A stretch of DNA of 54,634 nucleotides, counting the filler, from Streblomastix strix (taxonomy: Eukaryota), in the NCBI GenBank assembly GCA_008636045.1. It is 3 parts of 3 records of this genome, joined end to end, with 100 filler letters (N's around TTAATTAATTAA, not from the genome) between each part and the next. Parts side by side here need not be neighbours in the genome. Positions count along the whole stretch, not along the records: positions 36,524 to 54,634 come from SNRW01000636.1; 2 more parts are not named here. One strand, written 5' to 3'. Under the pieces are notes generated by a model. The model did not search any database, had not been told where the DNA came from, and was given only the letters and a program-made list of their open reading frames with translations. Position 1 is the stretch's first letter. Every line of letters starts with the position of its first letter. Made by a program: the position numbers and the translations under genes. Of the stretch, positions 14,910 through 54,634 are shown piece by piece.

Positions 14910-15029
14910 CCATTCTGTGAAATTATTTAACTGTAAAATACAATCAGAATTAGTCAATATTATATCAAACTAATAAAAATCCATTAAAATCCAGAGAAAA
15001 AAATTCCAAAAAGCAAAATCGAATTTACC

Positions 15030-28076: not shown

Positions 28077-28788
28077 CTGAAAAAGTAGAATAAATGATAA
28101 AATATACAGAGATTTTTTGATGTAAATATAGTGAAAAATAAGCGGGAACTAATTATTTTCACAAATAAAATATTATTTTGTTAAGGCACTAATGTGTAAT
28201 TACTTTTAATGAAATGATGTTTTTAATGAAAATAAGTAAATATTTATTATAATATTATTTTTAATTTGAATTTAATCGCTGAAATTAAGCCAAAAAATTA
28301 AAATAAAATTTACGAAGTGCGTTATTGAAAATGAAAGCATATCTAAAGACGGAAATATAGTTTTTGAGATTATATTATGTAAGTCCATAAATAAATAGTG
28401 CCAACTTGAACAAACCCATTGCGATAGAGCTAAAAATTGGACCGAATAATTTTGAAAATTCTTCAAGGTAATTAACCGATTTTTTGTTAATGTTTTAGTA
28501 AAAATAAATTAATAAAATATGATTTTGAACAAATATAATGCTTATTTCGCAGTTAAAAGCGACTGTTTATTGATATTTACAGTAAAATCGTGATGGTGAA
28601 GAGTGAAAAAATCAAGAAGGTGAAAGATGAAATAAAAATAAAGCTACGATGAAATAAAAATAAAGCTAATATGAAAACTGAAAACATAGACGAAAGCTCT
28701 CAGAGAACTACTGAATAGTGACTTGAAATAAAATAATTAATACAAGCTGAATCCAATAATATCAATATAAATATATATATCAATAATA

Positions 28789-31700: not shown

Positions 31701-32541
31701 AGTTGTTGAATTACTATGATCCTTATTATTGTATTGATTATGGGGTCCTCATTAGATTTGGGGAATGTTGTATTACAATAGAGTCATCAATAGGAGATCT
31801 ATGGACAGGAGATGGAGGTGCACTTAATATGGATGCACTTCTTGGCTTAAAGAATTCAAGCTCCAATAGTTGGTCAGCTTATTGTCGTGATTTGGGATTA
31901 AATGAAAGAGCACCTCGAAGCACATCACACAGCATAGGAATAGCCTTAGATGATATATGAGATAGTATTCCCCCTCGTAGTAAGGGCGTAGGAGGTTCAG
32001 TGCCCTTCAAAAATATATTCCATGAGGGTGGAGGTGTAGCATAAGAGTGTAGTTATAAGATGTTGAATCGCTGATCGCTCAGGTACCAGAAGTCTGTTCG
32101 GGATGGATTCCCGAACCTGTCAAATATTCCATTGAGTATATCGTCAATAGATCCAGATTGTATAGGATCGTAACCAAGTGCAGCCTCAAAAAGAATGCAT
32201 CCAAAAGTCCAGACATCCGTTTTTGGTGTAAATGCACCTTCCTCATCGCCAGCTTCGAGTAAGAATAAAGTCTCTGGTGAATAATATACTTGATCTCCTC
32301 TATTTAATTCTGATAAACTTACATTATCATTGCCAGAAATGTGAATATTTCTTGGATGCAATGTACGCAGTGAATCGCCATTTCCTTATCTTTCAATTAT
32401 TCGAATTAAAACTTATTTCATAATTCTTTACAATTATTCAAGTGGGATAATGCCTATAAAACATTGATTATTACAAAATAAATGAATGAAAATGTTCATA
32501 CCACCACTATCTCGTTTCAGTCCCTCGAGAGTAGATGCCAT
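28789..32541 (-). CDS. CMGC/CDK-like pseudokinase (C-lobe only) with >900-aa S/P/Q-rich tail
   Basis: ATG 32541, one intron. Reads LRTLHPRNI (no HRD), YYSPET, KTDVWTFGCILFE, FGNP and ALSFNPKSR. No GxGxxG, VAIK or DFG. TGA at 28789-28791. Confidence 0.8.
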
Positions 32542-32888
32542 GATTTAATTGTTAATATGAATCTAAAATAATTAAATAAAATAAAATAAAATAATTATAT
32601 ATCAAGAATAGTAAGAAAAATCAAATATTTGTTTTTATGTTTATCCAATCGATAATTAAATGATTGTTTAGTAAAATATTCTTAATTACGCTATTATTAA
32701 TATAATTTTATATGCATTTAAACAAATTTTGATTATAAAAATTCTTACTAGTTATAAACTTAACTGCTCAAAGTTTTTGTTATGGATCTTGATCAAATTT
32801 AGCTTTCTGCTTTTTTATTGAATGTTTAAGCCATTTAAAATATAATAAAACTGTAAAATAAAAACGTTATACAACAATCAATAAAAAA

Positions 32889-33755
32889 TAGGCCTGTCAA
32901 AAATCGGTCCAAAATTGCTAATTTTCGGACAGATTTCAAAAGTATATGCGGATTTGTTTTGAATATAAAATTTGAATATATAATATATATACACTTCATT
33001 TTTAATGATTAGAAAAATCCGCATACTCAACGATGGTGATTTCCAGCTTTTTATTTTTTTTTCAAAATTCACCAGTCGCAATAATTAAAAATTACATTTT
33101 GTTATGTTTTCATACATTATATATTATAGGGCATATACATACGATAATAACATGTTTGCAAGTTGTGCGGGTGGGAAAAGGAGAGTGATTTTTTCAAACA
33201 ATGAACTTCTGATTTCATTACATTTAAAATCATATTTTATTTATTGTACATTAATAAATATATTATTTATTATTATAAATTGATTTATTTCTTTTGTGCA
33301 TATTTTTAAAGTGTTTACTGGGAATAGTTTGCTATGTTGATTTTTCTAAAATGAAAACTTGCTCTAAAACAGTGTAAAGCTTTTTAATTTATACTATCTT
33401 GATTTAAATCATTAGTAGACATACCATAGTTACCATTACACCTTTATTTGCTAACTAATCACTTGTATTTTGAAGGAAAAATATTTTTTGCGTTCTTGTC
33501 AACCAGACATATTACTGACATGTAACTATAATAAACAATATATATAATATATTTATTGATTTATTATCATAATATTAAGGTTAAATTATTTACCTACAAA
33601 AATTTAAATTTTTGAAAATAAATTTTTTTTGTTGATCTTTTCAAAACTTGGCTTGCGGAAAAATCCGCACTCCTAATTGCTGTACGGAAAAATCCACACT
33701 ACTGATTGCTGTGTGGAAAAATCTGCACTTCCCGTCCGTCATTCCGTCACCCCTA
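32889..33755. mobile_element. Possible hAT-like non-autonomous element (MITE)
   Basis: Ends TAGGCCTGTC... and ...GTCACCCCTA. A subterminal motif (C)GGAAAAATCCGCAC is tandem x3 at ~33654-33729 and inverted at ~32941-33028. Any TSD lies in poly-A and is unverifiable. Confidence 0.4.
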
Positions 33756-33779
33756 TAAAAAAAATTTATTTCTTAATTG

Positions 33780-34844
33780 TTCCATCCAGAATTGAATCTG
33801 TTGAATCTTAGATCAAGCTTGCACTTGCTCACCATCAGGAGAATCTTTTTATTTTTCCATCCATTTCACTTTCAATTATTTTCACAAACTAAAAATAATT
33901 TTAATTCAGCTTTTTAATAAAATTAGTTTATTGTAATAAGACAAAAATAATAAATTATGTTGGTGATCAGCTCAAAAGGAAAGAAATAAACTTTATTTAT
34001 ATCACTTTTTGAAAGTTCTTATTCTAATTCTTTGATATATCTTTTTAGATGTAATTTCAGTAAATAATTCATTTCTTATCATTATCTTCTTCATTCTTAT
34101 ATTTAATGTCTTCTTTTTCTTTTTCTTTCTCTTAATGTTGTTCGATTAAATATTTCATCTTTTTATCATCATCTAATTATTTTCCTTTTCTTATTCTTTT
34201 TCTTATTGATTACTATTTTCTTTTATCCAAGTTTATTATTGTTTTTTTATATCACGAACCTTATTAAGAATTTGATCTGTCTTAATCCGATCTTATGGAT
34301 CCTAATTAATATAAAAAATATTGCAAAGTTAATTATTATTACACGGTAAAAATATTATATATAAATATAATGCAAACTGGTTTAAGCATCTCTTTGATTA
34401 GATTTCTCAAATAATCTGGATATTTCAAGAGCTTGTCAATCTCTTCAATAATTAAATAATAAGCTATATCATTTGATGGTGCATCGCGCTTCTGAAATAA
34501 ATAATTAAATGAATAAAATAGTAAATAATATAATAATTAATAATAAAATAAATAATAAAATAAATAATAAAAAGAATAATTTTTCATACAATATTATGAA
34601 GGAGAGGATGTTCCTTTATAAGTAATTCAACTATAATAATGCCCATACTCCAAATGTCATTTGATAATTGTAAATTAACTCTATAAATAATGAAAATATA
34701 AGTTAAAAAGAATGAAAATATAAGTTAAAAAGAATGAAAATATAAGTTAAAAAGAATGAAAAAATAAGTTAAAAAGAATGAAAAAATAAGTTAAAAAGAA
34801 TGAAAATATAAGTTAAAAAGAATGAAAATATAAGTTAAAATGAA

Positions 34845-34884
<40 letters not shown>

Positions 34885-35206
34885 AATATATTTTACACAT
34901 ACGAATCACTTGAATTAGCATTATTTTTTGATCCAAATCCATAATACACTGATTTATAAACAAAATTAATTGAATATGATATAAAAATTTAAAAATATAT
35001 CTAATTTTATTGAAAAACAAACTTAATTATATTCCCATGTCTGGAAATAACAAAATATTTTCTGGAGTTAAATTTCTATGACATATTCCATTTATGTGCA
35101 ATTGGTTAAGCCGCAATGTAAGTTCTTCAATAAAGTTAAGTATATCCTATAATTAATATAATAAATTATTATTATTAATAATAATAATAATAATAAGGTA
35201 AAATAA

Positions 35207-35253
<47 letters not shown>

Positions 35254-36423
35254 GGTAAAATAAAATAATAATAATAATAATAATAATAAGGTAAAATAAA
35301 ATAATAATATAAATTTATTTTTTCTTAATGAATACATTCAAGCTTATTTATTCTTCTTTTTCTTTCATTTGATTAATGTACTACCGCAAATTTTGACATA
35401 CACTACATTAAAATTATATCTAGCCCTTTGTTCCATTTAATGAAAGAAACAATCTTTATGGTCTAACAAAATAAGTTTGAGGAGATGAAGCAGACGAAGG
35501 ATTAATTTAGATTTTACAAATGTTATATATTTCAATCATTGATGTAAATTCACTCAAGATGCCATCTAAATGCCCTTCACAATAAATATCTATATATTAA
35601 TATTATGATTAGTCTTGACAAATTTTTATTGGACCTGGGGAAGAAGCTGAAGGAGAAATGGCATTTTATGGACATTGATGATATAAAGTTTAAGATGAAG
35701 GAGATGAAGTTGGAGAAGGAAAAGATGTGTTTGAAGTTTATTATTGTATGCTAATGCTATTTCCCTGAAATAAATATTTATATATAAACAATTATAATAA
35801 TTATAAAATTAATTCTTTATAAAATCTTTATTTTAACCTCTTCTGTGGCCAACCATTACAACAATCCTGGAAGAATCTCAAGAGTTTACACAACTATCAT
35901 TCGCCCACCATTATAATTTTAGCTTCTAAGCGAATGATTATTTATATCGCCAATTCCAATAAAGTCAATTTGAACTCCCATCTATTCAAGTTCATCACAT
36001 TCAATTAATGCATCAATATTTGAATCGCAAATAACAAAAACAATTATTCTCTTATTATCATCCAAATATTATTTAAACAATTCAACGGCTTTTTGAAGAG
36101 CAATTTTTATGTTATTTCCTTTTCCATTTTATCTTTCTGGTGTTTTTATATATCGGCTTTATTATCGAGCAAATATTACATTTACTTAGTCTGAATATGA
36201 TATTACAGATATAAATGCTCCTTTTTAATTCTGAATACGAATGAATTCATTTTCAATGTTTACCAAATATTAATGTTATTCATCTTATATTGAATTGGAT
36301 CCATCAGAAATAAGGATTGTATGTTATTTTAAGTTGCCTTAAACTTAATCAGAATCACGATTATCAATTCTTCCTTATTCATTTTATTATTTTAGATTCA
36401 TATTAACAATTAAATCATGGCAT
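33780..36423 (-). pseudogene. vWA domain + protein kinase-like gene, frameshifted
   Basis: vWA: TILISDGSNS, ISVISYSDQVNVIF, GNNIKIALQKAVELF, RIIVFVICD. Kinase: GICHRNLTPENILL, SNDIWSMGIIIVELL, DPQDRIKTDQIL. A frame change occurs just before HRN. Confidence 0.65.
34688..34846. repeat. 22-bp minisatellite (~7 copies), intronic, followed by (TA)n
   Basis: Unit AATGAAAATATAAGTTAAAAAG repeated in tandem. Confidence 0.9.
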
Positions 36424-36523: not shown

Positions 36524-37136
36524 ATATTGAAATTTATGATAATTTACCTATGGCTTTTAGTGGAAATCATGGAATAATAAAATAAATTAGGACCAGCTTT
36601 AAAAATATATCAATTCATTACTTTAGGATGGAAGTTCAAAAATCAGATAATGATAAGTTCCTAAATGAATTGGATGACCTAGTCAATACCATATACCAAT
36701 AGAACTGTATATTTTTGTCGTGGAACTTTTCACCCGACGACTTTATAGGGTGTCGGCCCCAAAAGGGCCAACGGACAATTAGCTAAAAATATCCATACTT
36801 TCAAGGGACATAAAAGTGTCGCTAGACTTTTAGGGGTAGTGTCTAATTTAGGCACAATACATTCAATCAATAACGTAATCACTTGCTTTAAGTCCATAAA
36901 CGTAAGGACAACAGCTTTAATCTTTTAATACTATAGACTTGGTGCGTATGCCAGTAATGCCATTATTTTGTGTTTCTATTTTTGAAATAATATGGTTCTT
37001 TTATCCAAGTCTCATATTAGTCGCCTTCGTTATCGTTCCACTTCCAATGTTATCCACTATATTTTATTTACTTATTTTAGTCGTTTTCTAATTGACACCC
37101 TTTAATTTTATTTTTCCTTTTCTCCTACCTTGAGAT

Positions 37137-38676
37137 GAGGTCGGCTAATTAAGTTGAAGCTCGAGTGCCCTTTTTGTATCTCATTAAAAGAAATATATTA
37201 ATTGAATTTATACATGCAAAATTCAATTATAACAAATACTCTTTTTTGCCCTCCTAGTCGAGATCAAAATAATAAATTTTCAAACAAAAGTTTCTCAATT
37301 AGTACTATGTTTTTTTACAAAATAAATTTTTTATTTAAATCATATTTAATAAATTTTAAAAAAAAATTTACTTTAAATTATTTAATGAACATTCGATGTT
37401 TTAAATAGCTTTCTATTGAATATTTTGAAATTTTATATAATAATCCTATTAATGTATAATTTTTATATCAAAAATTTTAATTATATATCATTGTTAGCTT
37501 ATTTAAATTATAAACAATATCTATTATTTTGGGTTGCAGCAGAAATTCTAGGATGAAAAAAATAATGAAAAAGTTCGATCATTTATGATGATTAATAAAA
37601 TATTTTTACTTTATTTTTTTTGTAAAATGAATTATTATTTATAGTTGTTTTAATTTATTATATTTTTTAACTAACTTAAATAGGTAGGTCATTTTAAATT
37701 GTCCTAGAATGTGTCGATGTAAGGCACGATTCTGTTGCGAAAACCCTGGACATTATCTGAATCCTTGGCAGTATTATTGGAATGATATCATCAGGCGTTA
37801 TTATATGCACATTTGTAGCACTACGCGTAGTGATGGCATTTATGTCGGAGCTTATAGCATTCATCTACTCATTTGTGGGACTCGCTGCTATTTTTATCAG
37901 TTTTAGGAACTTCTTCAGTGGAGATGAGCCTGCGGGTGTCTTCGCGTTATGCCTCCACCGTTTTGAATGCAATTTTGTCACATTTATTGGAGCAGTAACA
38001 TTCACAGGGCCTCTGATTGCATATTGCAAGTAGGCATTTCAATGCTAAATTCATAATCAGAATGGAATACAACAGCAACTGAGCTAATGATTAACAATCT
38101 CTCTCAAATATATTCTGGTGCACATGTAGGATCATCTTGTGCTATACTATCATATATATTATACCATGCTATGAACGGATCTTATATATTTGCTATTCAG
38201 AGTGGTTTTACAGCAGGTTCAGGAAGTGCTCCAACTGTTGCAGTTACGTAGAAAACATGCATTTATTTACAAAGTTACTGCCTACCTAGTTGTAGGAAGA
38301 CTCTAAGAATATGTGAATTTATTGTTGGCTGACGCCCATGTCCTATTTGATATTAAGATTGAAAAGGACAAGATCAACAAAGATTTTTCAACTAAAAATG
38401 TATTTATTAATAATTCTATATTAATTACTGAAATTTTGGAATCATTTTACATATTATTTTATTATAACATCAAAATCAATAAAGCAATCAATTAATTAAA
38501 TAAAAAATTACGATTTTTTTTTAAAAAAAAACGGATTTTTCTTTATTTAAGTATAATAAATCTATGTTAATATAATAGATTTGTATTATGTTTAAATTAA
38601 AAAAGTGATTTTTCTTAAAATATTATAAAATGGGCACTTTTACAATAAAAAATCTTGGAAATTATTAGCTGACCTC
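37137..38676. mobile_element. 1540-bp non-autonomous TIR DNA transposon inserted in polB (Sola-like termini)
   Basis: TIRs GAGGTCGGCTAAT (37137) and ATTAGCTGACCTC (38676), 12/13 identical. Flanks AGAT/ATAT suggest a 4-bp TSD. An AGTGCCC subterminal motif occurs at both ends. Removing it restores APKNYYIKVGEK. Confidence 0.88.
37709..38333 (+). pseudogene. Degenerate gene fragment carried inside the TIR element
   Basis: GC-richer coding-like island (FECNFVTFIGAVTFTG; SEWNTTATELMINN; IQSGFTAGSGSAPTVAV) broken across frames. No transposase motif recognised. Confidence 0.4.
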
Positions 38677-41600
38677 ATATAATAATTTTTAGGCGCTAAT
38701 GCTATCATTTCTGTTCCTTCATTTTCGATAGCTAAACCTAGAACCTTTTTTTCGTCCAATAAATTATTTTTAATAGTCGGGAAGTAGTATTTTGCATTAT
38801 CCTCATAGAATTATTTATCTTTAATCACATGGTTAAATTATTATAAATATCCAGCGTCAGCTAATCCACTAACAGCCCAATAAGCCGAATCAGTATCTCC
38901 TTCCAAGTAGTGCACTTTATCCATGTCAAAAGCTTTATGCATAAAATTATATATGAAATTTATGTAATGATATTTTGCATTATCCAAAACAAAATATGCC
39001 TCCTATAAGGGTGTTTTACAAGTGCAAGTCTCAGGTTTTAATTATACCGCGTATGAATCCGGGGATAATTATTACTCATCCATAAACGTATTCGATAAAT
39101 GGGCCTTTAATGCTTCCTTTTAATCCATGACTTTAATTTCGGTATATTTTTCTGTGTTCATTCCATCGGATCCATATGAGGAGTTCATAGTAATTTTACA
39201 AAATTATTCTAATACTTTATTTCCCTCTATTTTCGCATAAATTCTCTTGTCTATAGATTCCTTGACGAACGGATTAAATCCATCATGCTTATTAAATAAA
39301 ATTAATTGCTTTACATCACCTATAATAAAGTGGCAGTCATCAATTAGGAATCATAGATAGTAAGAGCTAAAAGAAATAAATTCCCCCATCGTTGATAATA
39401 AATTAGTTAATTTTCGTTATTTTTGGTCTGTTTTAATACTGTTATTTTTCATATGATTATACATGTAGGACCCCATAGTATCCTCATTAGTGGTATAGCT
39501 ATAACTTCTTAAAATAGGGGGGAAATTATTAAAATCATTAATGTATTTTTCGTCAACGTTTCCCTTTATCTCTGCTATAAATAACTAATCCCTTCCACTA
39601 ATTATATCCATTATTTTATCCTTATTATCTGTTCGGCTAATGTTGGAGCCAGCCATAGACATTTTACCACCTGTATATTTGATAAATTTATGCTCCACTG
39701 ATGACATAGCACTAGGATATAGAGAATTGAAATGAACGCCGACTATATGAGAAATTACATTATTTGACGTTTGAACATGAACCTTTTTATCAATGGGATC
39801 ATATTTAAATTATTTTATTACGACTTTGCCTGCGATATTTTACCTACGCATGACGTTAGATAGGCCACCAGTTATTCCACTTCTAATTAATTTATAATCA
39901 TCTATATTTGTTAAATTAGTGAGGAGACATTTAAGCATGCAAAATCTTCTAAGCTATTTAAATAATCTACTAATATTTTTATCTTTATATGAATATTATT
40001 TATTGCAATTTAAACAACAGGGTTAAACGTTATCTTTTGTATGAGGTAAACCATTATTGAGCCGGTCAAGTGATGGGCGGTTACTGAAAGTAAATTTATC
40101 CCCACAAATGGCACATGCTGACAATTCGAGTAATTGCTTAAAATAATCGTAATCATTGACGGAAACATTATTTGTTGGGTCTCTCTTTTTATTTTGGTTT
40201 TGGAATCTATATTCATCCACTTTATATTTCCAATAGCTGGAATATAAAATGAATTTATTTGTCTTGTCTTCAATGGGGGGATAATTAGCATTTATATCGA
40301 CATCTTTATTGATTAATGCATATTTGATAGAGTTTGCACAAGCAGCAATGGACATAAAGTTAAACATATCAGTTTTTATATTTGAAATTTATTTATTTTA
40401 AATTGTATATTGATGCTATCATTATTTTTGTATCCTGTTCATTATAATACTGTAAATATTCCCACCTTTTTCTTTACATCGTCTAAATAATTTTTATAAT
40501 CGTCCTCTTTCATCGATGAATTCTTTAGCGTTGAATTGAATTCGTCAATGGGGAATGGCTCAGATAAATTATGAACCTCATTGAAGTTATCAGTGTTAAT
40601 ATAATCATATGGAATTACGCCTTTTTCGTTGCCTTCAATAGAACCTCCAAAATTCTTTGCAAAATCCTTCAATGTCATCGGCTGAACATAGACCATTATA
40701 TCGCAGAATTTTAATTTAAATTATGAGTGCCTATGTTTAACGATGATGGATTTGGCTTATAATGAGCTGTCAATATAACTCTTAATTTCCCAGTCTGAAG
40801 ATTATAGATTTTTAAATATTAATGCAAAATCGAACTTTGCGCTATTGAATCCAACGATGAAGATTTCATTTGTGGTTAAATCATTTATGGTTTTATCGTC
40901 ATACTAATTGTCAAGGCTAATTTATTCCGCTTCTATAAATATTTATTTGAGCCATATATTTATGAAATCAACGCAATTTTTCAAATCATAGAAAATCGTT
41001 TTTATACCTTATTTGTTCTTAATTGTTGAGGCTACAGAAATGGGAACCAATTATGATAATTATTTGCTTGATTTTCCGAAATCTTTATTAATTATTTTCT
41101 CTACTGTTTCAAAATCATAAGTGATATAGTATTATGTAGGCTAAAATTCATTCTCTCGATTATTTGCCAGTAAATATTAATAAATTTTATTCTACATTAT
41201 ATGGGGGCAAAAAGGTCTTTGGACTGCTTCCAATTTAATTTCTTTGACTATTTTACCTTCGTTAATTTCACATTTCTTAATGTGTTTCTCATATTGCGCA
41301 ACGAAATGAGGGTCTTTAGGGTCATATGCTTTTTATTTACAGAAGGGGCAAAATTTTAATCCTTTTAAAGTTTCTTTATTCGAGATATAAAAGCGTGGGT
41401 AAGGGTTGCGGCTTAATCATCTTTGGCTTCATCAATTAATACGTTAAAGTCAGGAACTACAACGGGCTTATTAACCAATTCCTTACTGGATTCATCTGCT
41501 GCTTCATTAACGTCTTCATAATATTTATACACTTTTGACTGATAATATGTTTAACTTTCCACTGAATAACTATATTTATTTACATTAATTTTCTCCTTTA

Positions 41601-43002
41601 AAAACGAATTCATCGATTTCTGTTTCAATATCAAATCCAGTGAAATCATTGAGCCATTTTTGAAATTAATTGTCATCTGTTTTATATGGTAATTCATAAA
41701 ATTTAGCCATATGTTCTTTTGCCATGTGCTCCCGTGAATATTCTTTAATTCTTTTCTCCGCACTGTCGGGATATTTAAATAAATTATAAGCATAAAACCA
41801 GCATATATTATATTTGCATCTTGTCGTTCTTAAACAGTTTTTGCGCCTTTTCAAATGAAAGTCAATTAATTCCTTAATGCTGTCGCCTACGTGAAATTGT
41901 GATAGTTTGAACGTTTTATCATCATTGAATAAATCGCTATGAAACGTTATTTCGTGTTATCTAAATTAAAGTTCTACATTTCAATTATTTCACATTTTAC
42001 ATATTATTTATATTCCTCGACATCTTAATTATTAATGATTGATTTGGGGTGTGCTTTTATGTCCTTGCTTTATTGGGCCTAATGTTGCCGTATGACACTG
42101 ATAGATGCCAATTTTTGTCTCAATTTTGCTCCTCATAAATCACTCCAAAATCAAAGGTAATTTTAAATGCTTTATGGTTTAATTTTTCATAGACATCATC
42201 AATAAATTTATTTATCTCACCTAAAGAATAAATGAAATTATTATAATATGTGTTGCTTATTTCACCTTCAATATCTGTCTCAAAATGATACCCTTTACGT
42301 GCTTCACCAACTGCTTCAATAAATTTATCCCCCTATTTATGGTGGGAAATAAAGCAAGGTGTTAGACCAGTTATTTTCAATTTCTTTGACTTCACCGTTA
42401 TTGTACTTATTAAATTTATCCATTATTTCTTCGTTCTATATTATATCATTGTATATTTATGGAAGAACGAAATTGCGTCTGGTCTCGCTAAAGTTCTCAG
42501 GTCTTGTGAATTAAATTGTTTCGCTAAGCAAACGCTATTGGATCTATTAATCGTATTCCTATTATGCCTGTTCTTATTATTGTTCGCGTCTATATTCAAG
42601 CAAATCGTATTCATATTAATTTTAATGGAAATAATTGATTTGGTTATTTTATTCTTTTTGTTGCTGCTATTATTGTTGTTATTGTTGCTATTATTAAAAT
42701 TGTAATTGTTAAGCTTCAGCCACTTACCGCTAACGCACATTATTTGCAAAAGTTGTTAATTGGGTTAAATTATTTCTTCCTCTTTTGGGTAATTTAATTA
42801 ATCTAATATTTGATTTGGTTATTATTTTAGTACTGAGACTCTTATGCGGCGATTTACATTATTTTATCCAACGATTTCAAGCATTAACAAAATTTCTTTC
42901 TTCTTTAGGTATAACATATTTATTATAAATTAAAAAATTAAAAAAATAAATTTAATTTGGATAAATTAATTATGTTATATAAGGAAATAAAAAAATAAAA
43001 AA

Positions 43003-43034
<32 letters not shown>

Positions 43035-43065
43035 AAATAAAATAAAATAAAATAAATTAAAATAA

Positions 43066-43405
43066 TTAATGTAGCCTATCAATGGTTTCATCAATGTTCA
43101 AATATAATTCTTAGTTTATGGTATCAAATTCATTTTTCAATTCTGGATATGAATAATGCAAAACATCAATGATTTCTTTATCTTTATATAGCCGTTATTT
43201 GAATATTTTTTATCTAATTTTATGCTTCATCAATAATTACATTAATTTATTTCCGTTTTTCGGTCAATTTATGAAATCCAAAAGCTAAATATTCTTGTGT
43301 ATGTTTATCTGGGTTAATTATCTAATCTTAATAAGCTTCAATCTTTCTGATACAGTACGAATAATCTATTGCTGCTTATTTGTAATAATCGATTTTCTTG
43401 TTCAT
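43066..43405 (-). pseudogene. Small Polinton ORF, frameshifted
   Basis: ATG 43405 MNKKIDYYKQAAIDY..., continuing in another frame as DKEIIDVLHYSYPELKNEF. Confidence 0.5.
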
Positions 43406-43438
43406 TTATGATTGATAAAAATATATTAATTAATGGAA

Positions 43439-44899
43439 TCACTAAAATTAAATTTCTAGCAGTAAATTATTATACATATCACAATATTATGTCGGTATCT
43501 TACGGCCAAAGTTATCGTATAACGTAAATACAACTGACATATTTTAGCAGTTTAAACACTCTTACGACATCAAATTTTATCTCCATTAAACAGGTGCAAC
43601 AACCAAGTTCGATTTGAAGCATAAATTATTGAACCCATTACCTCCGACTGTCTCCATCTTTATTCCTTTCAATTAATTATTTACGCATATAATTAATATC
43701 TATGGGTACTCAATAAAATTACCTATAAATGGACTGAATATTGGCAGCTCAGGAATCAAACTATTAGCAGAAAATTTAGTCTTATAAAACCATGTTTCTA
43801 AATCAATCTGTTTAATTGATGATGCGAAATTAACTAATTAGTTTGCTTTATTCTCATTTAATCCATCATATTAATCTAATGCCCAGCTAATTAAGCATAT
43901 AAATTTGGCGATAATATTATTTTTTTAGCATTCCAATTAATATGCTCAACTACTGCATATTCACTAACAACTTCCGCAAAGAATTATCCATAAAAACCAG
44001 TCCTTCCAACAGCAGTATAAATATCAGTCCATTCTTAGGTGGTAGGAGCTGGCAGAGAGCATATTATTCTCAAGGGGAAAGTATTTATATTATTGGTTAT
44101 TTATTGCATGGGCTATTATTAAACATCAATTGGCTGGTCATCTGATATTGTTATCGCGCCCGCTGAACTAATATTTATCCGCTTACAAAATAACTAACGA
44201 ACGGATAATGCATTTGGTGCAAGTGGTTCAATAGAAGTTATAAAGTTATTTGTAGTTGGACAATATAATCGGATCAATCCAATTGTTCGATAAGAGACGC
44301 CGTTGCTATAGTCCATTATCCAATAGTGATAAAGTAATGCGTCAATTCTTAAATTTATGTAATTTATCGCTGAACTTACTATATCCTGTCAATAATTTGT
44401 ATTTAATGAAAATTAATTTTTTGATAATTTTTTATGTGTGTTCATTCTGGAGATTATTGAAGCAAATAGCGCCTCGGTTTGTTGTAGATTATAATTTGAA
44501 ATATTTTTCTTATCCGTCTATGAAATTAATAAACTAAGAAACTTAAACAGCAAGCAATTATGGAACGTATTTATATCTCTGATTATCTTAGTCATCAACA
44601 TATTAATTATTTATAGCAATATTTAAATTTAGCCTGATAGGGGGCAACTCCGTTAATGTTTATAATGAAAAGAAACCATTTCCATTATCCTGCTAATAAC
44701 ATATTTTCCTATTGGGTGTTGAAATTATATTGTGCTATATTTCTATATAATCACTGTTCAAATAATAGGTTAAATTTATCGGGATATTATTAATGCAATT
44801 TATTTGAAATGCATTATAGCCACAGGGTATGGTGGTCTTCCATGAAACGAAATCTTCATCTGAATCAGAGCTAATAATTTATAAGCCAATGTTTAACAT
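43439..44899 (-). pseudogene. Candidate minor capsid (penton-like) protein, frameshifted
   Basis: ATG 44899. Beta-rich composition. The C-terminus SVVFTLYDNFGRKIP...NLLLEIQFQ* fits the penton pattern h.h.L.D..G..h. Several frame changes. Confidence 0.45.
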
Positions 44900-44987
44900 T
44901 TATATAAAGTAAAAATAATACATTAATAGATTCATTATGCAAAACTTATTTTTGCCACCGCTTGCGGCTGGAATTACATTGATGAAT

Positions 44988-45215
44988 TCATTTTCCTCTT
45001 TCATTCAATAATTCGATTAGTTTCATATCTGCATTTTAGCTATTTTCTTAGGCTATAGATATGATTTATTTTTGCTCTTCCAACTTCAGACACTTATTAA
45101 ATTGTCTCTATAAAAATCGATGTTCAATTTCTCGGTCTGATTTCGTGGCAAAAGAAACTAAAGAACTTAGGAATGAATTATAGTCCATAAATTCCTCACA
45201 TGATATTTTAATCAT
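44988..45215 (-). CDS. Small Polinton hypothetical protein (75 aa)
   Basis: Open ATG..TGA under TAR=Gln: MIKISCEEFMDYNSFLSSLVSFATKSD...LLNERGK*. Confidence 0.55.
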
Positions 45216-45374
45216 TTATTTAAAATAAAAATAATATTTCAATTATGTTTTAGAGCTAAAATTTGAGTTGTGAGAAGAATAAGACTAGATATAAAAATCA
45301 TAATATCAATGGTTTCCATTTGTTTCAAATTAAAAAATAATATTATCATTAAAATATTTTTAAATTCATTTAAA

Positions 45375-46334
45375 ATGTCCGCAAAATCAAAATCAAAAAC
45401 AGCTTCACTATAAACAAGATCAACATCAAATACCTAGCAATAATCTAGTAGTTCGTCAAGTACTTCAGATTCTCGTTTAAGAGACGGAAAAATATTCAAG
45501 ACAGACACAGAGATTTTATAATTATACAAATAAACACACTCGTTGAATAAAACAGTTATGGACCCACATACAGGTAAGAAAAGTATTTTGAAATAATAAA
45601 ATGACATCGTATCCTAGACGGGAGGATTAACTACGCAAGAGAGGAAATATTTAAATCTAATGTATTATGACATTAACCCAATGAGACATGAAGAAGTTGA
45701 GGACCCCCGCATAAGTACAGAAAGGCCTGCCACGACTTATAGCTATGCATATATTCCTTACAATCTTAGTGACGTCCAAAATTTACCAGCAAATCATACT
45801 GGAAGCATGCAGCTACCCAAACCTCAATAAATAAAAGAAAACATAAAAGAAAAAGAAAAGCAAATATATAGTGGTAGCTCAGACGAGGATGGGATAGGAA
45901 CACAAATAGGATTAGAGATTCCAGTTGTTAATTTTACAGATTTATAATAAGTTGAAAATATGATATAATAATTAGCATAATAAGCATAAAATAATTTGAT
46001 GTAAGGTAAAATTTTATAAGTGGCAAATAAAGAAACATTAAATCCCTTAGAATATTAAATAGGCGCTTTAGATTGGGGGAACGTGCCACTTAATGCAAAA
46101 TATACAAATAACCCTTATCAATTAAAAGACTACTAATATTATATGAACTAGGGAGGGATGCCATCTCTAAGGTAAAAATAATAAGTTCTAACAAAAGGAA
46201 GTAAAGTTAATCAGTCAAAAGAAAGAAAGAATTATATTAAAAGAAGCTAATTAAAAAAAATCTGTTGCCGCATAAGAAAAGCTAAAAAAATATAGCAAGA
46301 AAAATAAGTAATGAAATCATTCAGTTCATACTGA
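45375..46334 (+). CDS. Polinton hypothetical protein (319 aa) with basic N- and C-termini
   Basis: Uninterrupted 960-nt ATG..TGA frame with many TAR=Gln codons: MSAKSKSKTAS...KERKNYIKRSQLKKICCRIRKAKK. Confidence 0.7.
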
Positions 46335-46344
46335 TTCATCAATC

Positions 46345-46793
46345 ATCTCCATCTTCCCTTCCATTATTTCTATTATTTTAATTAAATCCTCATTTGATAA
46401 AACAACTTTATTTAGCATTTTTAGGCCGATGATTATAACTCAGAAATTCTAGATTTAAATACTTTCTATTTTTCTCTCAAACGTTGTTTAAATTATTTAC
46501 GTTGTAATCTAGCCATATCATTAGCCTCTTCTTCAGTGTAACATTTTCGTGGCCTACCTTGTCTTGGTGTTGCGGGCCTGCCGATTGGAGCCTCCATTAA
46601 CGGTTCCATTTATGGTTCTATTTATGGCTCTATTTATGGTTCCGTTGGTGGCTCTATTTATGGTTCCATTGATGGTTCCATTACTGGCTCCTCAATTGGA
46701 TTCACGTTTATTTTCATATTTTTTACATAATTTTTACTTGGTTTTTTTTCTCTAAAATTGGCTTTTCGTTTTGTTCAATTATTTTACCTTCCA
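46345..46793 (-). pseudogene. AT-hook / basic-helix DNA-binding protein with EPxx repeats
   Basis: EPVMEPSMEPQIEPPTEPQIEPQIEPQMEP (12-bp repeats) then RQGRPRKCYTEEEANDMARLQRKQFKQRLREK. Frameshift in an A-run near the 5' end. Confidence 0.65.
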
Positions 46794-46833
46794 TTAATTA
46801 ATTGATAAAAAATAAAAAATTAAAAAAAATTAA

Positions 46834-47778
46834 TCAATTTAATTTAAATGTTCGTTTATATTTCAATTATAAAGTATCAATAGAATCCTCTACTTTCTTT
46901 TTATAGTAAATGGGAATTTCAACGGTTTTAATATCTTTGTACTGTCTTAATAATTCACAAATAACGTTTCCATGGCTATAATTAAAGATTACGGCGATTT
47001 CATTAAATTATCTTCGTTTCTTTTAAAAATTACGCTGAGTTTTTGAAAGGTCAAGATGAATCATTATTATATTCCCTTAGTGAAGGTCTATTAATTTATC
47101 CTTACTTTATAGTTCTTTTACGTTGGTGGCATCTTTCATTTTCTAACGAATATATATACCTTCTAAATCTTCTGATTCATTAACTTACTGAGGGGTAAAT
47201 TTATTCTTGAACGCCGAATGCTTGGTGTTATTGTAGTCATCAAACGACTTGCTACATTTGCTTATTATTAGCCATGAGCTGGTCATCGTTTTCAAATGCA
47301 TTTCTTATAGTTCGGATAACAGAATCAACAATACGGTTTTTGTTGATAAATTTGGATGAGTTAAAATAATAGGTTATATTTTAGTCTTTCAAATAATCCT
47401 TAATTTAATTGCTTCCTAGCGGTGCCTCACCATCAGATCGAATATTGGAAACATACTGGTCTTTTACTAATTATTTTATACATCTGAGTAATTCATTTGT
47501 GGATTTAACTTTGATAGGATAAACTTTTAAATATTTTGTATTGATATTATTGGCAAAAAAATAGAGCGATTTGATTTTATTTATGGTGGGATGCATTATG
47601 AAAATAACATCAATTTCCTAACTTCCTAACAAAAGCAAATAATATGGTCGTTGGTATTTCTTTAATGGTTTCAATTTTATATCTTGAACAATATTGGTTT
47701 TATCTTTCGCTTTATTTCTGAAGAGATTTTATATTTTCGTTGGCTCAATTTATTATTTTAATTGTTTTGGCTTGGCAT
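46834..47778 (-). pseudogene. Retroviral-like (rve) integrase of the Polinton
   Basis: Motifs GS(Q)EIDVIF, NINTKYL, IRSDGE, KNRIVDSVIRTIR and YNNTKHSAFKNKFTP. One frameshift near 47241. Confidence 0.88.
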
Positions 47779-48948
47779 TTTATTTAATTCTTTCAGCGTG
47801 ATATTTTAAATAATTATCTAAATAAATATTATTACCATTGCGAAATTGTTTTATTTTAAAATATCTATTCTAAATTATTTATTGTAAATTATTAATTAAA
47901 ATAATTATTGATATTTCTAATGAAATTAGGCTGGAAATAATTTTTTTTTCCCGAACCAAATGGCTGGCTCTATGACTGACACTGTGGCTGTATAAAAAAA
48001 TAATAATTTAAATTTAACAAAAAAAAATTTTTTTTGATCTCTATGAAATTTTTGTAAAAAAAAATTGAAAATTTTTTAATTGAAAATAAGCATTTTTGGG
48101 TAAAAAATCATATTAATTAATCAATTTTTTATACAATAGTATATCTGTAGAATTTAGTAATAAAATAAAACAAAAATTAAATACAATTTATGTTAAGTTC
48201 AATAGTTAAATTAATTTTATTGTTATATTTTAATTTAAAAAAATTAAAAAATTAAAATAAAGCAGAAATAAAATTGAAATATAGCTTATATTATATAATA
48301 ATCATATTTTAAATATAATACTAACATTATATTATGTTAAAAACTATGTTAAAACAATGTGTTGCGGAAGAAAATGAAAATTAAAGAAAAAAATAAACAA
48401 AGAATTTGATAAAATTATAATTAATTAAAATTTTAATTTATAAATTGCATAATTATATGCATGCCATAAAATTAATTTAAATGTAACTTAAAATAACAAA
48501 ATTTAAACGGATTGTCTTATCAATTTTCCAGATTTATTATGCAAAAAAAGCAGCCTAGTGTTTATAAGTATCTGTAGTACAAAAATATAAATATTGCGTA
48601 ATTATTGATATATAATATTTAAATTATTACTAATTAATTTATCAAATATTAAAATATATATATTGATGCTAGCAAAAATTTGAAAAATATTAGAAGTAAG
48701 TTGGCACTATGTTTATTATATTCAAATTAGTAAAATAATATTTTGTAGCATTATATTATGAAAATTAAGTAGTATAAACCAGAATTGATAATATAGTTCA
48801 AGAAATAAAATTATTTATTTAAATTGTGGATACTCACATATTAATAATTAATAATTTATCTAAAATGAATTAGTATTGCTACATATATATCCATTCATAA
48901 CGTTTGCAGGTGGTAAATGTGAAAGGAAATTCTAGAAAATCTTAATTC

Positions 48949-49010
48949 TGGGGACAGATCGGTCATAGTCATAACTCTGCCAAAGCCAGACTATGACCGA
49001 TCTGACCCCA
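48949..49010. repeat. Strong inverted repeat / hairpin
   Basis: Perfect 16-bp stem CAGATCGGTCATAGTC / GACTATGACCGATCTG with an 18-nt loop, extended by TGGGG/CCCCA. Confidence 0.92.
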
Positions 49011-50119
49011 TAAGAAAGTTTTCACCAATAAAATTTTTTGAAATGAGCTTTTTAATAAATAGTAATATATAATAAATATATTATATATATAATTATAAAA
49101 ATATTATATAGACTCCATAATAAAGTGATACGTTATTTAGATTTTATTAAAATTTTTTATTTTTTTCATTAGAGACATTGAAAGAAAAATTACCAAAAAA
49201 TGGCTGGTTCGAGATACGAGAGCCAGCCATCCCTTTTGCAGCCTAAATGAAATCCTTTAAGTTTATTTTATCAGGCTTAAAACTTAAATTGTCAATTACT
49301 TCGTTAATTAGTTTATTTCTATTAAACATTTTATATATTTTAAATTGTATATTAATAAATGAGCTCAAATGGCTCAGTGGGACTGGTCCCTCCCACTACC
49401 AAGTCGAGTGTCTACGTTCGACTCACCCCGCTCACGGTCCTTTCGTTCGTTAAAATTAACAGTTCGTTTTAATTTTTTCCAAGAGCGGGGGGCCAACTGT
49501 TCTTGCTCCAACTCAAAAGAACAGAACCGAGTCCACCCATCATAAAAAAAAGAAAATGGGCGATGTAATCGCTAGCGATTGTGAGACATATCACTTTTTT
49601 TTGGTTTTTTACAATTGGGCAAAAATATCGGGGGATATGTTATATATACATAAAAATGCTAATTCCATTTAATTATTATTTTTTTAATTAGAATAACATA
49701 AATTTAAATCACAATTTCAAACAGTTCGCGCTAACGCGAAACAATTTTTTTAATAACATTATTTTTTTAATTTTTGCCTACCCATAATTTCAAACTTTGA
49801 TTTTATTAATTAATTTATATTTATTTATATATTGTCTTATTATGAAACACAAACATATACTTTTGATGGGGCAAACATTAATGGAGGCTATTAAAGTTTT
49901 AAAACTAACTTTGAAAACAAACTTTTTTATTTTATTATTAAATTTTTTAATTTGTATATATAGTGTGGCCATTACTGAGCAACCATTGCGCGATGATGGG
50001 GCATTGCTGTTGGGGCATTGATGTTATGTAGTAGTCATTTAGTGAGAAGTTCGCACTTTCATGTTTTGAAACTTGGTTTATATTTATGCGGTCTAATTAA
50101 GTATTTGGATTGACTGAAT

Positions 50120-51117
50120 GGTGAAATGCGAATCGTTGAGCTGCGCAAATTCGCTGAGAAGGAACATGAAAAAAATCTTACGTTGGAAATCATGAAGGAG
50201 GGATTGAAACCCAGTGAACGATCGAGGGAAAATAATGATGAAAATTTTGGGAACACTAATATTTTTTAAAGGAATTCAACTAAAAACAAGAAAAAGCAGA
50301 AACCACCTTCACATCTGAACTTTAATCAGACATATTTACTGAACATCATCATCATTATCATCTCTGGGTAAAGTACATTCAAATTAAGTGAATCTTCATC
50401 AATATCGTTCACATATAATAGACACATAAATGAAGTAGAATGAGAGTATTATTCGTGAAACGACAGCTGATGAATTTGAGATTGAAGCTGAATATCAGAA
50501 TCTGATCTGGAACACATTCATAAGCAAATTGGACAAGATAACAAGAAATCGTTCGTTGTTTAGATAATGGCTTCAGAGAAAAGAAATGCTAGATTTAATG
50601 GGATGTGTTGATACTGCGTCTGTTAAGTTAGATAAATAGATTGAGATTAAAATGAGTGATGAAATGTATGCTTAATATAAATAGAAACAAAATCAACAAA
50701 TATATCCATATCAAACAGAACTATAGAAGTAATAGAAGAAATTATTGAAGAAGAATCAAAAATTATTGAAAAAGAAAAATCCTTCATTGAGAACTACGCA
50801 AACAAAAGATTAACTTAACACAGATTGCAGAATTGCCCATTTAAATCTGATTATACAGAGATGTGCAGTATTTTTTCTTGGCCCAGAAGAAAAATTGATC
50901 AAATTTGCTCGTCCATATGTTTTAGAGATGGAATGTAACTCGCATGTGTCTTAGTTGGCTAAAACTACTGAGTGCTTTTCTGCATCTCACCAAACAATCA
51001 ATATATTGAAGAATAGCTTAGATTGGCTATAGATATATCCAGATTGTCATTGGTTATTTATATCGCTGGTGTTTGCACAGAAACAGAACCAAGTTGCTTC
51101 AAGTTGCAGAAGCTGAA
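50120..51117 (+). pseudogene. Degenerate coding sequence of unknown family
   Basis: Protein-like segments in shifting frames (FEIEAEYQNLIWNTFISKLDK...; FLGPEEKLIKFARPYVLEMEC) with multiple TGAs. Confidence 0.35.
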
Positions 51118-52149
51118 GGAATAACATACTATTCAACTTTAATAGTAAATTAGTATTGATTAAACAATTATCAATTTATTATTTATAAAATATTATTTTA
51201 TTAATAGTTTTATTTGATAATAATCATTTCTTTTATAACATTTTTATTATTATCATCTATTTCTTCACATAAATTAAACAACAGTCCCGACTGTATAATC
51301 AGTAAATATGTATGATCAAGAAGAATATTATGAAATTGATGATCAAGAACAAGAATAAGAGCCAAAAGAATCATGGATCAACTTCAAAGTGGACACAGAC
51401 ACTTATAAAAGCTGAGAATTTTTTAAATATTTTAATATTTTGAAATTTTTTCTTCATTTTATATACGATTTTCATTTAAAACGAAACTGTTTTTATAATT
51501 TATATTTTTCTATATTTTTTTCCAATTAAATTTACAATCTTCTCTCAATTAGTTTACTAATTTTTTAATTTAAAAGTTTTAATTTTATTCAAAGCATACT
51601 CTGATAAAAAACTTGGGGATGCCTAATTGACCCGGAGGGTTCTGGATGGGTGGATCGGTCGGAGTTCTGTGGGTAAGAATAAATATATGATATTGCAAAA
51701 ATATCGTTTTACTTTATATTGGAAAAATTGAAAAAAGAAAAAAATAATAATAAAATCTAAATAGTATCAACAAATAATTAGATTTATATGTATTTATGTT
51801 ATTAATTAGTAATAATTTAAATATATTAATTTATTAAATATGCTATTTATTAAAAAATACTTGCGATACATAAAAGAATTGGCAAATAATAATAATAATT
51901 TTGTTTGATGCAAACAGTATCATAATGGTAATTGAAATTTATTCAAATAAGTTAATAAACATACAAATTTAAAAAATAATATAAAAATTAAATATAAGGA
52001 TACTGGCTGAGGGACACACTGCTGAGAGAAAATTTTTATCCAAGATGCTAATGGAGGCTTATTTGAATCCATATTTTACTAAAATATATATTTATAAAAT
52101 GTATTAAAATTTCTTTTTTAGAAGAACAGTGGTAAATACTCTTGTTTGG

Positions 52150-52195
52150 AATGACCCAGACTAGGTTGGGTCGGGTCGGGTTGGGTCGGGTCATT
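52150..52195 (+). repeat. (GGGTY)5 pentamer array inside an AATGACCC/GGGTCATT inverted repeat
   Basis: aatgacccagactaggttgggtcgggtcgggttgggtcgggtcatt. Confidence 0.85.
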
Positions 52196-53282
52196 TTTTT
52201 TTAAAGCCAAATTTTGACAGTAACAAGAATTGCGCGCTTGAGGGATAATAGTACATAAATTGGTTAAGACAGAAATATGATAATGAAATAATTACATATA
52301 GTTATAATAAATTTATTCAATAATGCAATTAGCTATGCGCGAAAAAGAGTTTACCCACGACGACCCGTACTAATTTTTAAATAAATTTTTTTTATTGAAA
52401 CTATATGGGCCAGTTTCATCGGATGTAATCTTATTCAATTTTAATATTTAAAACTTCTTATAATAATTTTATTAGTTCCCTGAAATATAATTCATTTGCA
52501 TATTGTTATTTGTCATGATGTTAAAATTTTTTAAACCCCATTATTAATTCAATAAATGGACGTTTGCAAACAGAATCATCGAGTATCGATTTTTCAGTTT
52601 ATTTTTATTTATATTAATATACTATTACATAAAACATGTTCCAAACATGTCAAAAACATGTTTGTATAGTGTCTATAATTTTGTTAGTAAAATGAAAAAT
52701 TTACAGCAAATGTTAATTTATTTTTGTCAACAACTGAATAAATTTAATAATAAAGCATAAAAAAGTCTAACTAACATGCTGATACACAAATTAATGTTGT
52801 CACAAAACCGCAATTAATGAATAAAATTATTTCACATTTTTTGCTCCAACAGCATATAAATAGTTATATTTTAATAAAAATTTTTTATTTACAAAATTAT
52901 AGTACTGATGTTTATATAATATTGTATTTCTTAAGCATGAAAATCATCTTACAATTTCAATAATAATATTTATCCTGCAAATTCTCTATCACTTCATATT
53001 TTAATTCTAACAAATTTATGCTTAATGCATTTAATATAAATATTTAATTAATTTAATCGTATAATAAACATTAATTTTTTTTATAATTAAAGCTTTGCAA
53101 TGTTTTGAATTTATTTTTTTACTGATTTATAAAATTTTCTAAGTTTTAGACTTCTACACTGTTTTAAAAATGCACTTTAATATGTATTAATATTAAAAAA
53201 CTTCACATTTAAATAATAAACATATATATTAATATAAATAATGTGCTAATGCTTATGTATTATAATTCTATGATTAACACAC

Positions 53283-54060
53283 AAAGAATTTGACTTGACG
53301 AGGAACTCTGCTTACATAGATAGCTTGTGGCTTATCATTCACATAGAAACGTACAGTGCGACCTGTTTAAAGAAAAAAAAAATAAATTTATTAGTTATTA
53401 ATAATAATATAATAGTTAACATTAATATAGTAATTCTTATATTTACATTCATACAATTATTAATTCAAACCATCTTCAACTTATTCTCCATTCTTTAATT
53501 CTGCAGTTCCATCAATCATGACCTCATCATAATTGCGCATATCAACTTCAACAGCAACTTTGTCTCCATCGTTCCATCTTCCTGATCCAGAGAAGCATTC
53601 TCCATTCACTTGTACATACCCACTGAATAAAACATAATAAATAAATGAGTGATATTATTGAATTGAAATATTTGTATATTTTTATATACTCCGCATCAAA
53701 GGCAACGCTTTCTATAAAATATAAATAAATGAATAAACGAAATAAGAAAACCAATTAGTGATTAATTAAAATTATAAACCTTTTCCATGATCAGGAGCAC
53801 ATTCTGTTCCATCACTTTTGTTTGATGTTACTGATCCATGATGAGATGTTTATCCTGATAGAGACTTCGCAGTGGGTCCAACAACTATAGCTCAATCTTC
53901 TGGCTGTGTTGCAAGAGCAGCTGGTAATGATGGGATGAAGATGCTGCATAGAAGATATGACATATAGGGTGGAAAATGCAGTATAAGCGATGTAAGTGCT
54001 TGGGAGGCGCTAATTGAGACATTATCTTTCGAGCACTAAATATTTTAAAGAATAATTTAA

Positions 54061-54093
<33 letters not shown>

Positions 54094-54600
54094 AAACAAA
54101 CCAGAGCGCTAGATATAAGTGAACTTATCAAATTCACTCTCACAAGATCATAATTTGTTGTTTTTGCATTTTAAGCACTAACAAAAGATACATGTCCAAC
54201 TGACAAAGACTAGAAATTATAAATAAATAAAATAAATAAATAAATGAATTATAATAAATGTAATTATGTTGTTAGAAAAAACAAAATAAGATATTGTAAA
54301 CATTATCATCAGCTTGCTCCTTTAATATGCGGATATGTGTCTCAATAATTCTATTATATAATACAGCATCTACAGTTTTAGGTTCTGAAAAATAATATTT
54401 GCATAAAAATAAATCAAAAAATTGGATATATTGAGTTTAAAGAAAAGAATTAATGATAACTAAATATCTAAAGCATACCATTTAAGCATTTTTTGATTAT
54501 ATCAATCATGATATTAGCTCGTTTTTCATCATTCTACTCACCAATATGTCTAATACTTTCATCGATCGTTGTTATCTAAATATGAACATATATATGTTCA
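53283..54600 (-). CDS. Multi-exon gene with helical region and C-terminal SPRY-like domain (partial, possibly pseudogene)
   Basis: GYVQVNGECFSGSGRWNDGDKVAVEVDMR ... GRTVRFYVNDKPQAIYVSRVPRQVKFF. GT-AG introns. In-frame TGA at 53892-53894. Confidence 0.6.
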
Positions 54601-54634
54601 TTATTTGAAATTTGATATTTATATAAAGTATTTA

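What the first reader, a model, noticed from the sequence alone, without database searches (positions are those of the whole stretch)
36524..49960. Polinton/Maverick endogenous virus whose genes are written in the host's TAA/TAG=Gln code
Seen: an intronless pPolB, rve integrase, penton candidate and 4 small ORFs, all readable only with TAR=Gln. Examples are a polB poly-Q run mixing CAA/CAG/TAA/TAG at ~42660-42715 and a 960-nt ORF full of TAR codons. Established: pPolB plus integrase defines Polintons. Inference: this is a virus lineage adapted to, and host-restricted by, a recoded anaerobic protist, and it is invisible to standard-code ORF callers. The major capsid, packaging ATPase and protease are not in the window and may lie beyond the left contig edge.
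Basis: partly seen in the sequence, partly recalled or inferred. Interest (0 to 1): 0.85.

Follow-up and report, generated by a model that had tools for sequence, protein, structure and literature searches.

The report
Decayed Polinton-like virus in host's code
This is a broken copy of a Polinton-like integrated virus in a termite-gut protist (likely Streblomastix strix) whose genes read the usual stop codons TAA and TAG as glutamine, as the host's genes do, and this code sharing was already reported for that host in 2023.

Summary
The observation largely holds. The third contig (36524-54634) carries a protein-primed DNA polymerase B and a retroviral-type integrase that read only with TAA/TAG=Gln. 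The best homologs are Streblomastix strix proteins.

The TAR codons are not decay. At Gln sites 50 of 61 Gln codons are TAR, while the same C>T change hits 2 of 67 His/Pro codons. TAR use (0.72) is close to host genes (0.79) and to the synonymous Leu TTR share, which fits drift to host codon equilibrium, not special adaptation.

polB has at least 5 frameshifts, 2 in-frame TGA, a motif-A Asp>His change and a 1,540-bp inverted-repeat insertion carrying a transhydrogenase fragment. The integrase and a ~485-codon penton candidate (unproven) are frameshifted too. No capsid or ATPase was found in the window. Standard-code relatives pair this polB with the integrase (L001) or a double jelly-roll capsid (L003).

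Bellas et al. 2023 (PMC10120064) already state that S. strix endogenous viruses use the host's table. The scan noted a similar case on another genome (e1-7142348). The integrase family has a D-D-D triad. Verdict: already known, low interest.

The parts
36524..36865 (.). Element DNA at the contig's left edge, downstream of polB; gene unidentified
   Evidence: Summed contig depth 1140-3380 in run X1, like polB; coding score weak (z 1.9 and 0.5); no Pfam hit
36866..37123 (-). C-terminal 86 codons of pPolB, cut off by the insertion
   Evidence: 84% identical to P0001 residues 559-644
37137..38676 (.). 1,540-bp insertion in polB with 13-bp terminal inverted repeats (12 of 13 match) and flanks AGAT/ATAT, read as a 4-bp target duplication with one change; likely a non-autonomous DNA transposon
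   Evidence: Junctions; contigs of X1 and X2 join across the empty site 37115 to 38677; depth 31-62 over 37589-38440 versus thousands in polB
37967..38329 (+). NAD(P) transhydrogenase beta-subunit fragment carried inside the insertion
   Evidence: Pfam PNTB, E 8e-11, residues 21-90 of this frame
38673..42876 (-). Main body of pPolB with a Gln-rich N-terminal extension. Broken: at least 5 frameshifts, in-frame TGA at 39351-39353 (Trp in 29 of 31 aligned homolog rows) and 42120-42122, motif A reads HFNSLYPS
   Evidence: Pfam PF03175 E 1.9e-9; tblastn chain; TGA sites; Asp at motif A in 33 of 37 homologs, motif not found in 4
42658..42696 (-). Run of 13 Gln codons mixing TAA, TAG, CAA and CAG in the polB N-terminal frame
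42880..43242 (-). 121-aa ORF in the same frame as the polB N-terminal extension, separated by a TGA; weakly coding-like
   Evidence: z 2.5
43442..44899 (-). One ~485-codon multicopy gene in three frames (two frameshifts); penton (minor capsid) candidate, unproven
   Evidence: 23 relatives found, and the 10 clusters looked up are all S. strix; homologs span the frame breaks; adjacent to polB also in P0027; atlas lead V18-19 at 0.83 only; fold failed
45375..46334 (+). Intact 319-aa ORF (960 nt) with 27 TAR codons; function not identified
   Evidence: codon score z 5.3; no Pfam hit
46343..46717 (-). 124-aa ORF with EP-repeat and basic C-terminus, coding-like
   Evidence: z 4.2; no Pfam hit
46837..47704 (-). 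rve-type integrase, one frameshift between 47261 and 47235; catalytic Asp codons at 47609-47611, 47432-47434 and 47324-47326 (D-D-D); N-terminus runs further right, start not fixed
   Evidence: fold of homolog P0110 pLDDT 87, Foldseek to PFV/HIV integrase E 4e-12

Best explanation
This is a broken copy of a high-copy Polinton-like element that has likely lived for a long time in an oxymonad host reading TAA/TAG as Gln, so that its Gln codons likely drifted to the host's codon balance while the family was still replicating. Shown: pPolB and an rve-type integrase lie on one contig, and their Gln codons are mostly TAR at the host's proportion. Also shown: the breaks in this copy and the nested insertion. 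Inferred from the known Polinton scheme: intact members would copy their linear DNA with pPolB, insert it with the integrase, and could package it in a double jelly-roll capsid encoded outside this contig. Inferred: because CAR to TAR is a silent change in this AT-rich host, it accumulates without selection, and as a side effect the genes would truncate in a standard-code cell.
For: Decay control: sites with Gln in sibling proteins carry 50 TAR and 11 CAR, whereas His/Pro sites show the same C>T change in 2 of 67 (Fisher p 5e-22; 8 sibling proteins, 1,902 aligned sites). With only the 135 non-S. strix homologs: 6 of 10 versus 2 of 35, p 6e-4, including a TAA at a Gln found in 24 of 24 aligned homologs. 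Equilibrium: TAR share 0.72 in element genes versus 0.79 in three host genes (p 0.056); Leu TTR share 0.78-1.00 in element genes. Long residence: the window falls in a 100/100 clade of 8 S. strix rows with two diverged subfamilies; Gln content 5.8-6.2% in S. strix pPolBs versus 3.0% in others. High copy: 1,848 contigs of a termite-gut run laid on 6.4 kb. Relatives use the standard code and pair polB with the integrase (L001) or a DJR capsid (L003). Literature: PMC10120064.
Against: No capsid, ATPase or element ends were found in the window, so viral status rests on relatives and the paper. The penton is unproven. The sibling proteins were themselves translated with the host code, so the large test is partly circular and the independent one is small (10 Gln codons). 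Equal proportions do not exclude weak selection. Codons of sibling copies were not read at DNA level. The host species is inferred from homolog names and habitat, not from a held genome.
Confidence: 0.8

Rival explanations
1. A still-infectious virus lineage that was selected to use TAR=Gln and spreads between oxymonad cells as particles.
For: 820 capsid genes reported in S. strix; atlas capsid clusters dominated by Preaxostyla; some S. strix family members have long open pPolB frames (P0001, P0002, P0004).
Against: TAR share is not above the host's or the Leu C/T share. This copy is broken. No relative was confirmed in viral contigs in 3 scans, which is weak because those scans rely on short standard-code patterns.
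Confidence: 0.15
2. This subfamily is a capsid-less self-synthesizing transposon (Maverick in the old sense), and the host's capsid genes belong to other elements.
For: No capsid or Walker A motif in about 11 kb of element; penton unproven; S. strix holds at least two pPolB clades.
Against: The copy is cut by the contig edge. L003, whose polB is in the weakly supported (89/80) sister group of the window's clade, carries a DJR capsid. The 485-codon gene has a weak penton lead.
Confidence: 0.15
3. The breaks are assembly artefacts of a multicopy region and the real copy is intact.
For: PMC10120064 shows that such false stops and frameshifts arise in short-read assemblies. Only 145 of 1,848 laid contigs are 99% or more alike.
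Against: A 1,540-bp insertion with inverted repeats and a target duplication interrupts polB, while other contigs span the empty site. A catalytic Asp>His and a Trp>TGA are present. The window's branch is 0.25 against 0.086 for its sister.
Confidence: 0.08
4. The TAR codons are nonsense-type decay (CAR to TAR) after insertion of a standard-code virus.
For: The copy is decayed, and C>T and G>A changes are common among laid contigs.
Against: C>T at His/Pro first positions is 2 of 67 against 50 of 61 at Gln; 2 of 35 against 6 of 10 with outgroup proteins only.
Confidence: 0.03

Closest known systems
Endogenous Polinton-like viruses of Streblomastix strix, 'Metamonada group' MCPs (Bellas et al. 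2023, PMC10120064)
   Same: Likely the same host lineage; same TAA/TAG=Gln use, stated in the paper; high copy number (820 MCPs in Table S1); pPolB plus rve integrase is a gene set the paper lists for such elements.
   Different: The paper defines the elements by capsid genes, whereas this copy shows the polymerase and integrase side and no capsid. The passages read give no decay control or codon-equilibrium test.
Trichomonas vaginalis Maverick/Polinton elements
   Same: The integrase is homologous (P0126, 37% over the core) and shares the third Asp; massive genomic expansion.
   Different: Standard genetic code (recalled). No T. vaginalis-named pPolB was among the 37 homologs, so the pPolB relation was not tested.
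Tlr elements of Tetrahymena thermophila (PMC4028283)
   Same: Virus-like element with rve integrase, capsid and penton in a host that also reads TAR as Gln (host code recalled).
   Different: Tlr has a superfamily 1 helicase instead of pPolB.
Code-6 giant virus genome of Imitervirales family IM_12 (PMC13524828)
   Same: A DNA virus whose genes read best with TAA/TAG=Gln.
   Different: A giant virus from metagenomes with unknown host, not an integrated Polinton-size element.

Membership tests
Polinton/Maverick (Polinton-like virus) | Protein-primed DNA polymerase B | tested here: met
   Pfam PF03175 above cut-off; homologs over the whole length; broken in this copy
Polinton/Maverick (Polinton-like virus) | rve (retroviral-like) integrase linked to pPolB | tested here: met
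   Homolog fold matches PFV/HIV integrase, E 4e-12; Pfam rve in 12 of 49 aligned members at E 0.01, none for the window piece; same pairing in L001. Third catalytic residue is Asp in 49 of 49
Polinton/Maverick (Polinton-like virus) | Double jelly-roll major capsid protein | tested here: inconclusive
   No match of the L003 capsid to the window (best E 1.2), but the element is cut by the contig edge; the relative L003 has one
Polinton/Maverick (Polinton-like virus) | Penton (single jelly-roll minor capsid protein) | tested here: inconclusive
   Candidate 43442-44899: no Pfam hit, model of homolog P0169 pLDDT 34.6, atlas lead V18-19 0.83 on 19% of members
Polinton/Maverick (Polinton-like virus) | Packaging ATPase (A32/FtsK-like) | tested here: inconclusive
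   No GxxxxGK[ST] motif in frames of 40 aa or more of contig 3; element truncated
Polinton/Maverick (Polinton-like virus) | Adenovirus-like cysteine protease | not tested
   No dedicated search; no Pfam hit among the 30 frames scanned
Polinton/Maverick (Polinton-like virus) | Terminal inverted repeats, 6-bp target duplication, 15-30 kb length | not testable with these tools
   Left end is off the contig and no genome is held; no long inverted repeat within contig 3
Stand-alone DDD/E transposon (IS481EU, Ginger) as source of the integrase | Single transposase gene between its own short inverted repeats | tested here: inconclusive
   No such repeats seen around it and the homolog in L001 lies beside pPolB; not aligned to IS481EU proteins (PMC10045372, passages only)

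The most novel reading that the evidence does not exclude
S. strix hosts two separate pPolB virus lineages that each converted to TAA/TAG=Gln, at least one still forms particles locked to recoded oxymonads, and the metamonad elements integrate with a D-D-D rather than D-D-E retroviral-type integrase. The tree shows two fully supported S. strix clades apart, both Gln-rich, but a single origin is not rejected (AU p 0.17).
Probability: 0.12. Interest if true: 0.55.

Novelty: already known. Interest (0 to 1): 0.22.

Why it matters
It adds a control to a published remark: the shared code is older than this copy's decay and sits at the host's synonymous balance. A genetic-code barrier to host switching can therefore arise by drift alone, and code use can serve to assign such elements to hosts in termite-gut metagenomes. 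The conserved D-D-D integrase triad and the gene-fragment-carrying insertion are small side findings. None of this changes the known picture of protist Polinton-like viruses.

Tried and rejected
No whole genome is held, so copies, element ends and linked capsid genes could not be searched. No RNA holder was listed, which says nothing on expression. Runs X2 and X3 held next to none of the sampled words. Contigs were laid only on 36524-42900, so copy depth and the right boundary of the element are open.

Searches that found nothing: polB piece against phages; three viral-contig scans; near-length homolog search for 44345-44899 (42 candidates, none significant); polB profile against PDB sequences; scan look-ups by place and by sequence. 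The integrase profile against PDB gave only weak hits (best E 0.013, all top rows integrases).

The fold of penton-candidate homolog P0169 failed (pLDDT 34.6) and was not searched. The 960-nt ORF has no homolog search behind it, only Pfam and codon scoring. ORF length under table 6 was rejected as evidence. Polyphyly of S. strix pPolBs is not established (AU p 0.17). The 49043-49978 ORF could not be tied to the element.

Rows left out of the tree: homologs and loci with under 200 query residues aligned (P0034, P0036, L002, L007-L013).
Full report
Setting. The window is three contigs joined by N spacers: 1-18171, 18272-36423 and 36524-54634. No whole genome is held. Long host genes on contigs 1 and 2 (a metallophosphatase, a kinase, a thiolase fragment) read through only under table 6. 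A stretch at about 53230-53720 on contig 3 shows exon-like blocks separated by GT-AG introns (read by eye). One termite-gut run holds 0.41 of the element's sampled words. The five best pPolB homologs are named Streblomastix strix, as are all 10 clusters looked up for the penton candidate. The host is therefore likely S. strix or a close oxymonad (inference).

Observation. Under table 11 the region 33000-54634 has 8 ORFs of 80 aa or more, the longest 114 aa. Under table 6, pPolB appears on the minus strand from about 42876 to 36866 (Pfam PF03175, E 1.9e-9; 80-84% identical to P0001 by tblastn). ORF length is not evidence by itself, since 63.5% of 200 simulated sequences gave an equally long frame. 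Codon usage does mark the 960-nt ORF (z 5.3) and 46346-46717 (z 4.2) as coding-like.

The copy is broken. The polB alignment changes frame at least five times and has in-frame TGA at 39351-39353, where 29 of 31 aligned homolog rows have Trp, and at 42120-42122. Motif A reads HFNSLYPS, where 33 of 37 homologs have Asp and 4 lack the motif. A 1,540-bp insertion (37137-38676) with 13-bp inverted ends and AGAT/ATAT flanks splits polB between P0001 residues 556 and 559. Contigs from runs X1 and X2 join across the empty site, and depth inside the insertion falls to 31-62 against thousands in polB. The insertion carries an NAD(P) transhydrogenase beta fragment (Pfam E 8e-11). The integrase has one frameshift, and 44899 to 43442 is one gene of about 485 codons in three frames. 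The window's branch is 0.25 against 0.086 for its sister P0001. PMC10120064 warns that assemblies can create false breaks, so single frameshifts may be artefacts, but the insertion is hard to explain that way.

Is TAR decay or inherited? CAR to TAR is a first-position C>T change, so His and Pro codons serve as controls. Against 8 sibling proteins (1,902 sites), the 129 Gln sites carry 50 TAR, 11 CAR and 68 other codons. The 37 His sites carry 1 TAY and 19 CAY, and the 62 Pro sites 1 TCN and 46 CCN (p 5e-22). Of 88 TAR sites, 50 align to Gln, against a background of 6.8%. Because siblings were translated with the same code, I repeated the test with the 135 non-S. strix homologs: of 18 conserved Gln sites 6 are TAR, 4 CAR and 8 other, against 2 of 35 for His/Pro (p 6e-4). 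TAR use thus predates this copy's decay. Of 13 metagenome loci, 11 gave alignments at E 1e-10. These have 0-3 TAA and 0-1 TAG per aligned segment beside mostly CAR codons, so outside relatives use the standard code.

Adaptation or drift? The TAR share is 0.61-0.79 across element genes and 0.73-0.84 in three host genes. The analogous synonymous Leu TTR share is 0.78-1.00 in element genes and 0.59-0.82 in host genes. Pooled, the shares are 0.72 and 0.79 (p 0.056). This is what silent drift under AT pressure would give (inference), and there is no excess that calls for selection. Gln makes up 5.8-6.2% of S. strix pPolBs and 3.0% of the others (whole stored proteins of unequal coverage). The window sits in a 100/100 clade of 8 S. 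strix rows, and 3 other S. strix rows form a separate 100/100 clade (41 rows). One origin is not rejected (AU p 0.17).

Family identity. The integrase pieces match L001, where the homolog lies next to pPolB, and match T. vaginalis integrase-core proteins. A model of the S. strix homolog P0110 (pLDDT 87) matches foamy-virus and HIV integrases (E 4e-12). Three Asp residues are invariant in the 49 aligned sequences (48 of the 113 homologs plus the window piece). A motif search found Asp in 70 of 113 homologs, Glu in none, and no motif match in 43. The third lies where rve integrases have Glu (position recalled, not from a call). One literature search for this returned only PMC10045372, whose passages do not address it, and I did not read its alignment supplement. 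L003 pairs a related polB with a 543-aa protein that the atlas places among double jelly-roll capsids, nearest to Parabasalia and Preaxostyla clusters. That capsid has no match in the window, and no Walker A motif was found in contig 3. The penton candidate stays unproven: no Pfam hit, failed fold, atlas lead V18-19 at 0.83 (that this is the Sputnik minor capsid protein is recalled).

What is known. Bellas et al. [quoted passage not shown] PMC4028283 (passages) defines Polinton and Tlr capsid genes. PMC13524828 (passages) reports a code-6 giant virus genome. PMC12220804 (passages) added nothing on the code. Searches returned only the Bellas paper, and 14, 52 and 75 returned listings from which the others were chosen. 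The scan's note e1-7142348 describes a similar code-sharing virus on another genome (unchecked).

Verdict. The feature is real, works like a Polinton-like integrating virus, and meets the two membership features that could be tested on this truncated copy. Its headline property is in print for this host. Novelty: already known. Interest 0.22.

Noticed in passing
window 37137-38676: Likely non-autonomous DNA transposon (GAGG...CCTC ends, 4-bp duplication; resemblance to Sola-type ends is recalled, untested) carrying a transhydrogenase beta fragment with a possible short GT-AG intron near 38029-38060: a gene-fragment-capturing element inserted in polB.
   Followed up: partly
window 47324-47611 (-); alignment A3: D-D-D catalytic triad, invariant in 49 of 49 aligned integrases including T. 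vaginalis and S. strix proteins.
   Followed up: partly
window 48950-49009: Hairpin with 21-nt arms (20 of 21 complementary) and an 18-nt loop to the right of the integrase; possibly an element end or a small transposon remnant.
   Followed up: no
window 49033-49168 and 51729-51858: Degenerate inverted repeat (74% over 138 nt) around the 50430-51116 ORF; possibly another mobile element.
   Followed up: no
L003 3618-4169 and 6036-6743 (-): Two transposase-like frames (recognised by eye, not searched) between polB and the capsid gene; a 115-aa penton-like ORF follows the capsid at 8253-8600.
   Followed up: no
L006 1849-2595 and 4687-5370: A pPolB of this family on the same contig as a frame that looks like an animal ephrin receptor exon (by eye); possibly a chimeric or contaminated contig.
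   Followed up: no
window 21644-21714: tRNA-Gly(TCC) on contig 2; no TAR-decoding tRNA was found in the window.
   Followed up: no
window 15685-16665 (-): Thiolase N-terminal domain (Pfam E 4.7e-9) followed by unrelated low-complexity sequence.
   Followed up: no
window 39354-40418 (-): pPolB carries an HNH-like Cys motif insert (weak Pfam HNH, E 0.009) before motif A, also seen in the homolog sequences.
   Followed up: no
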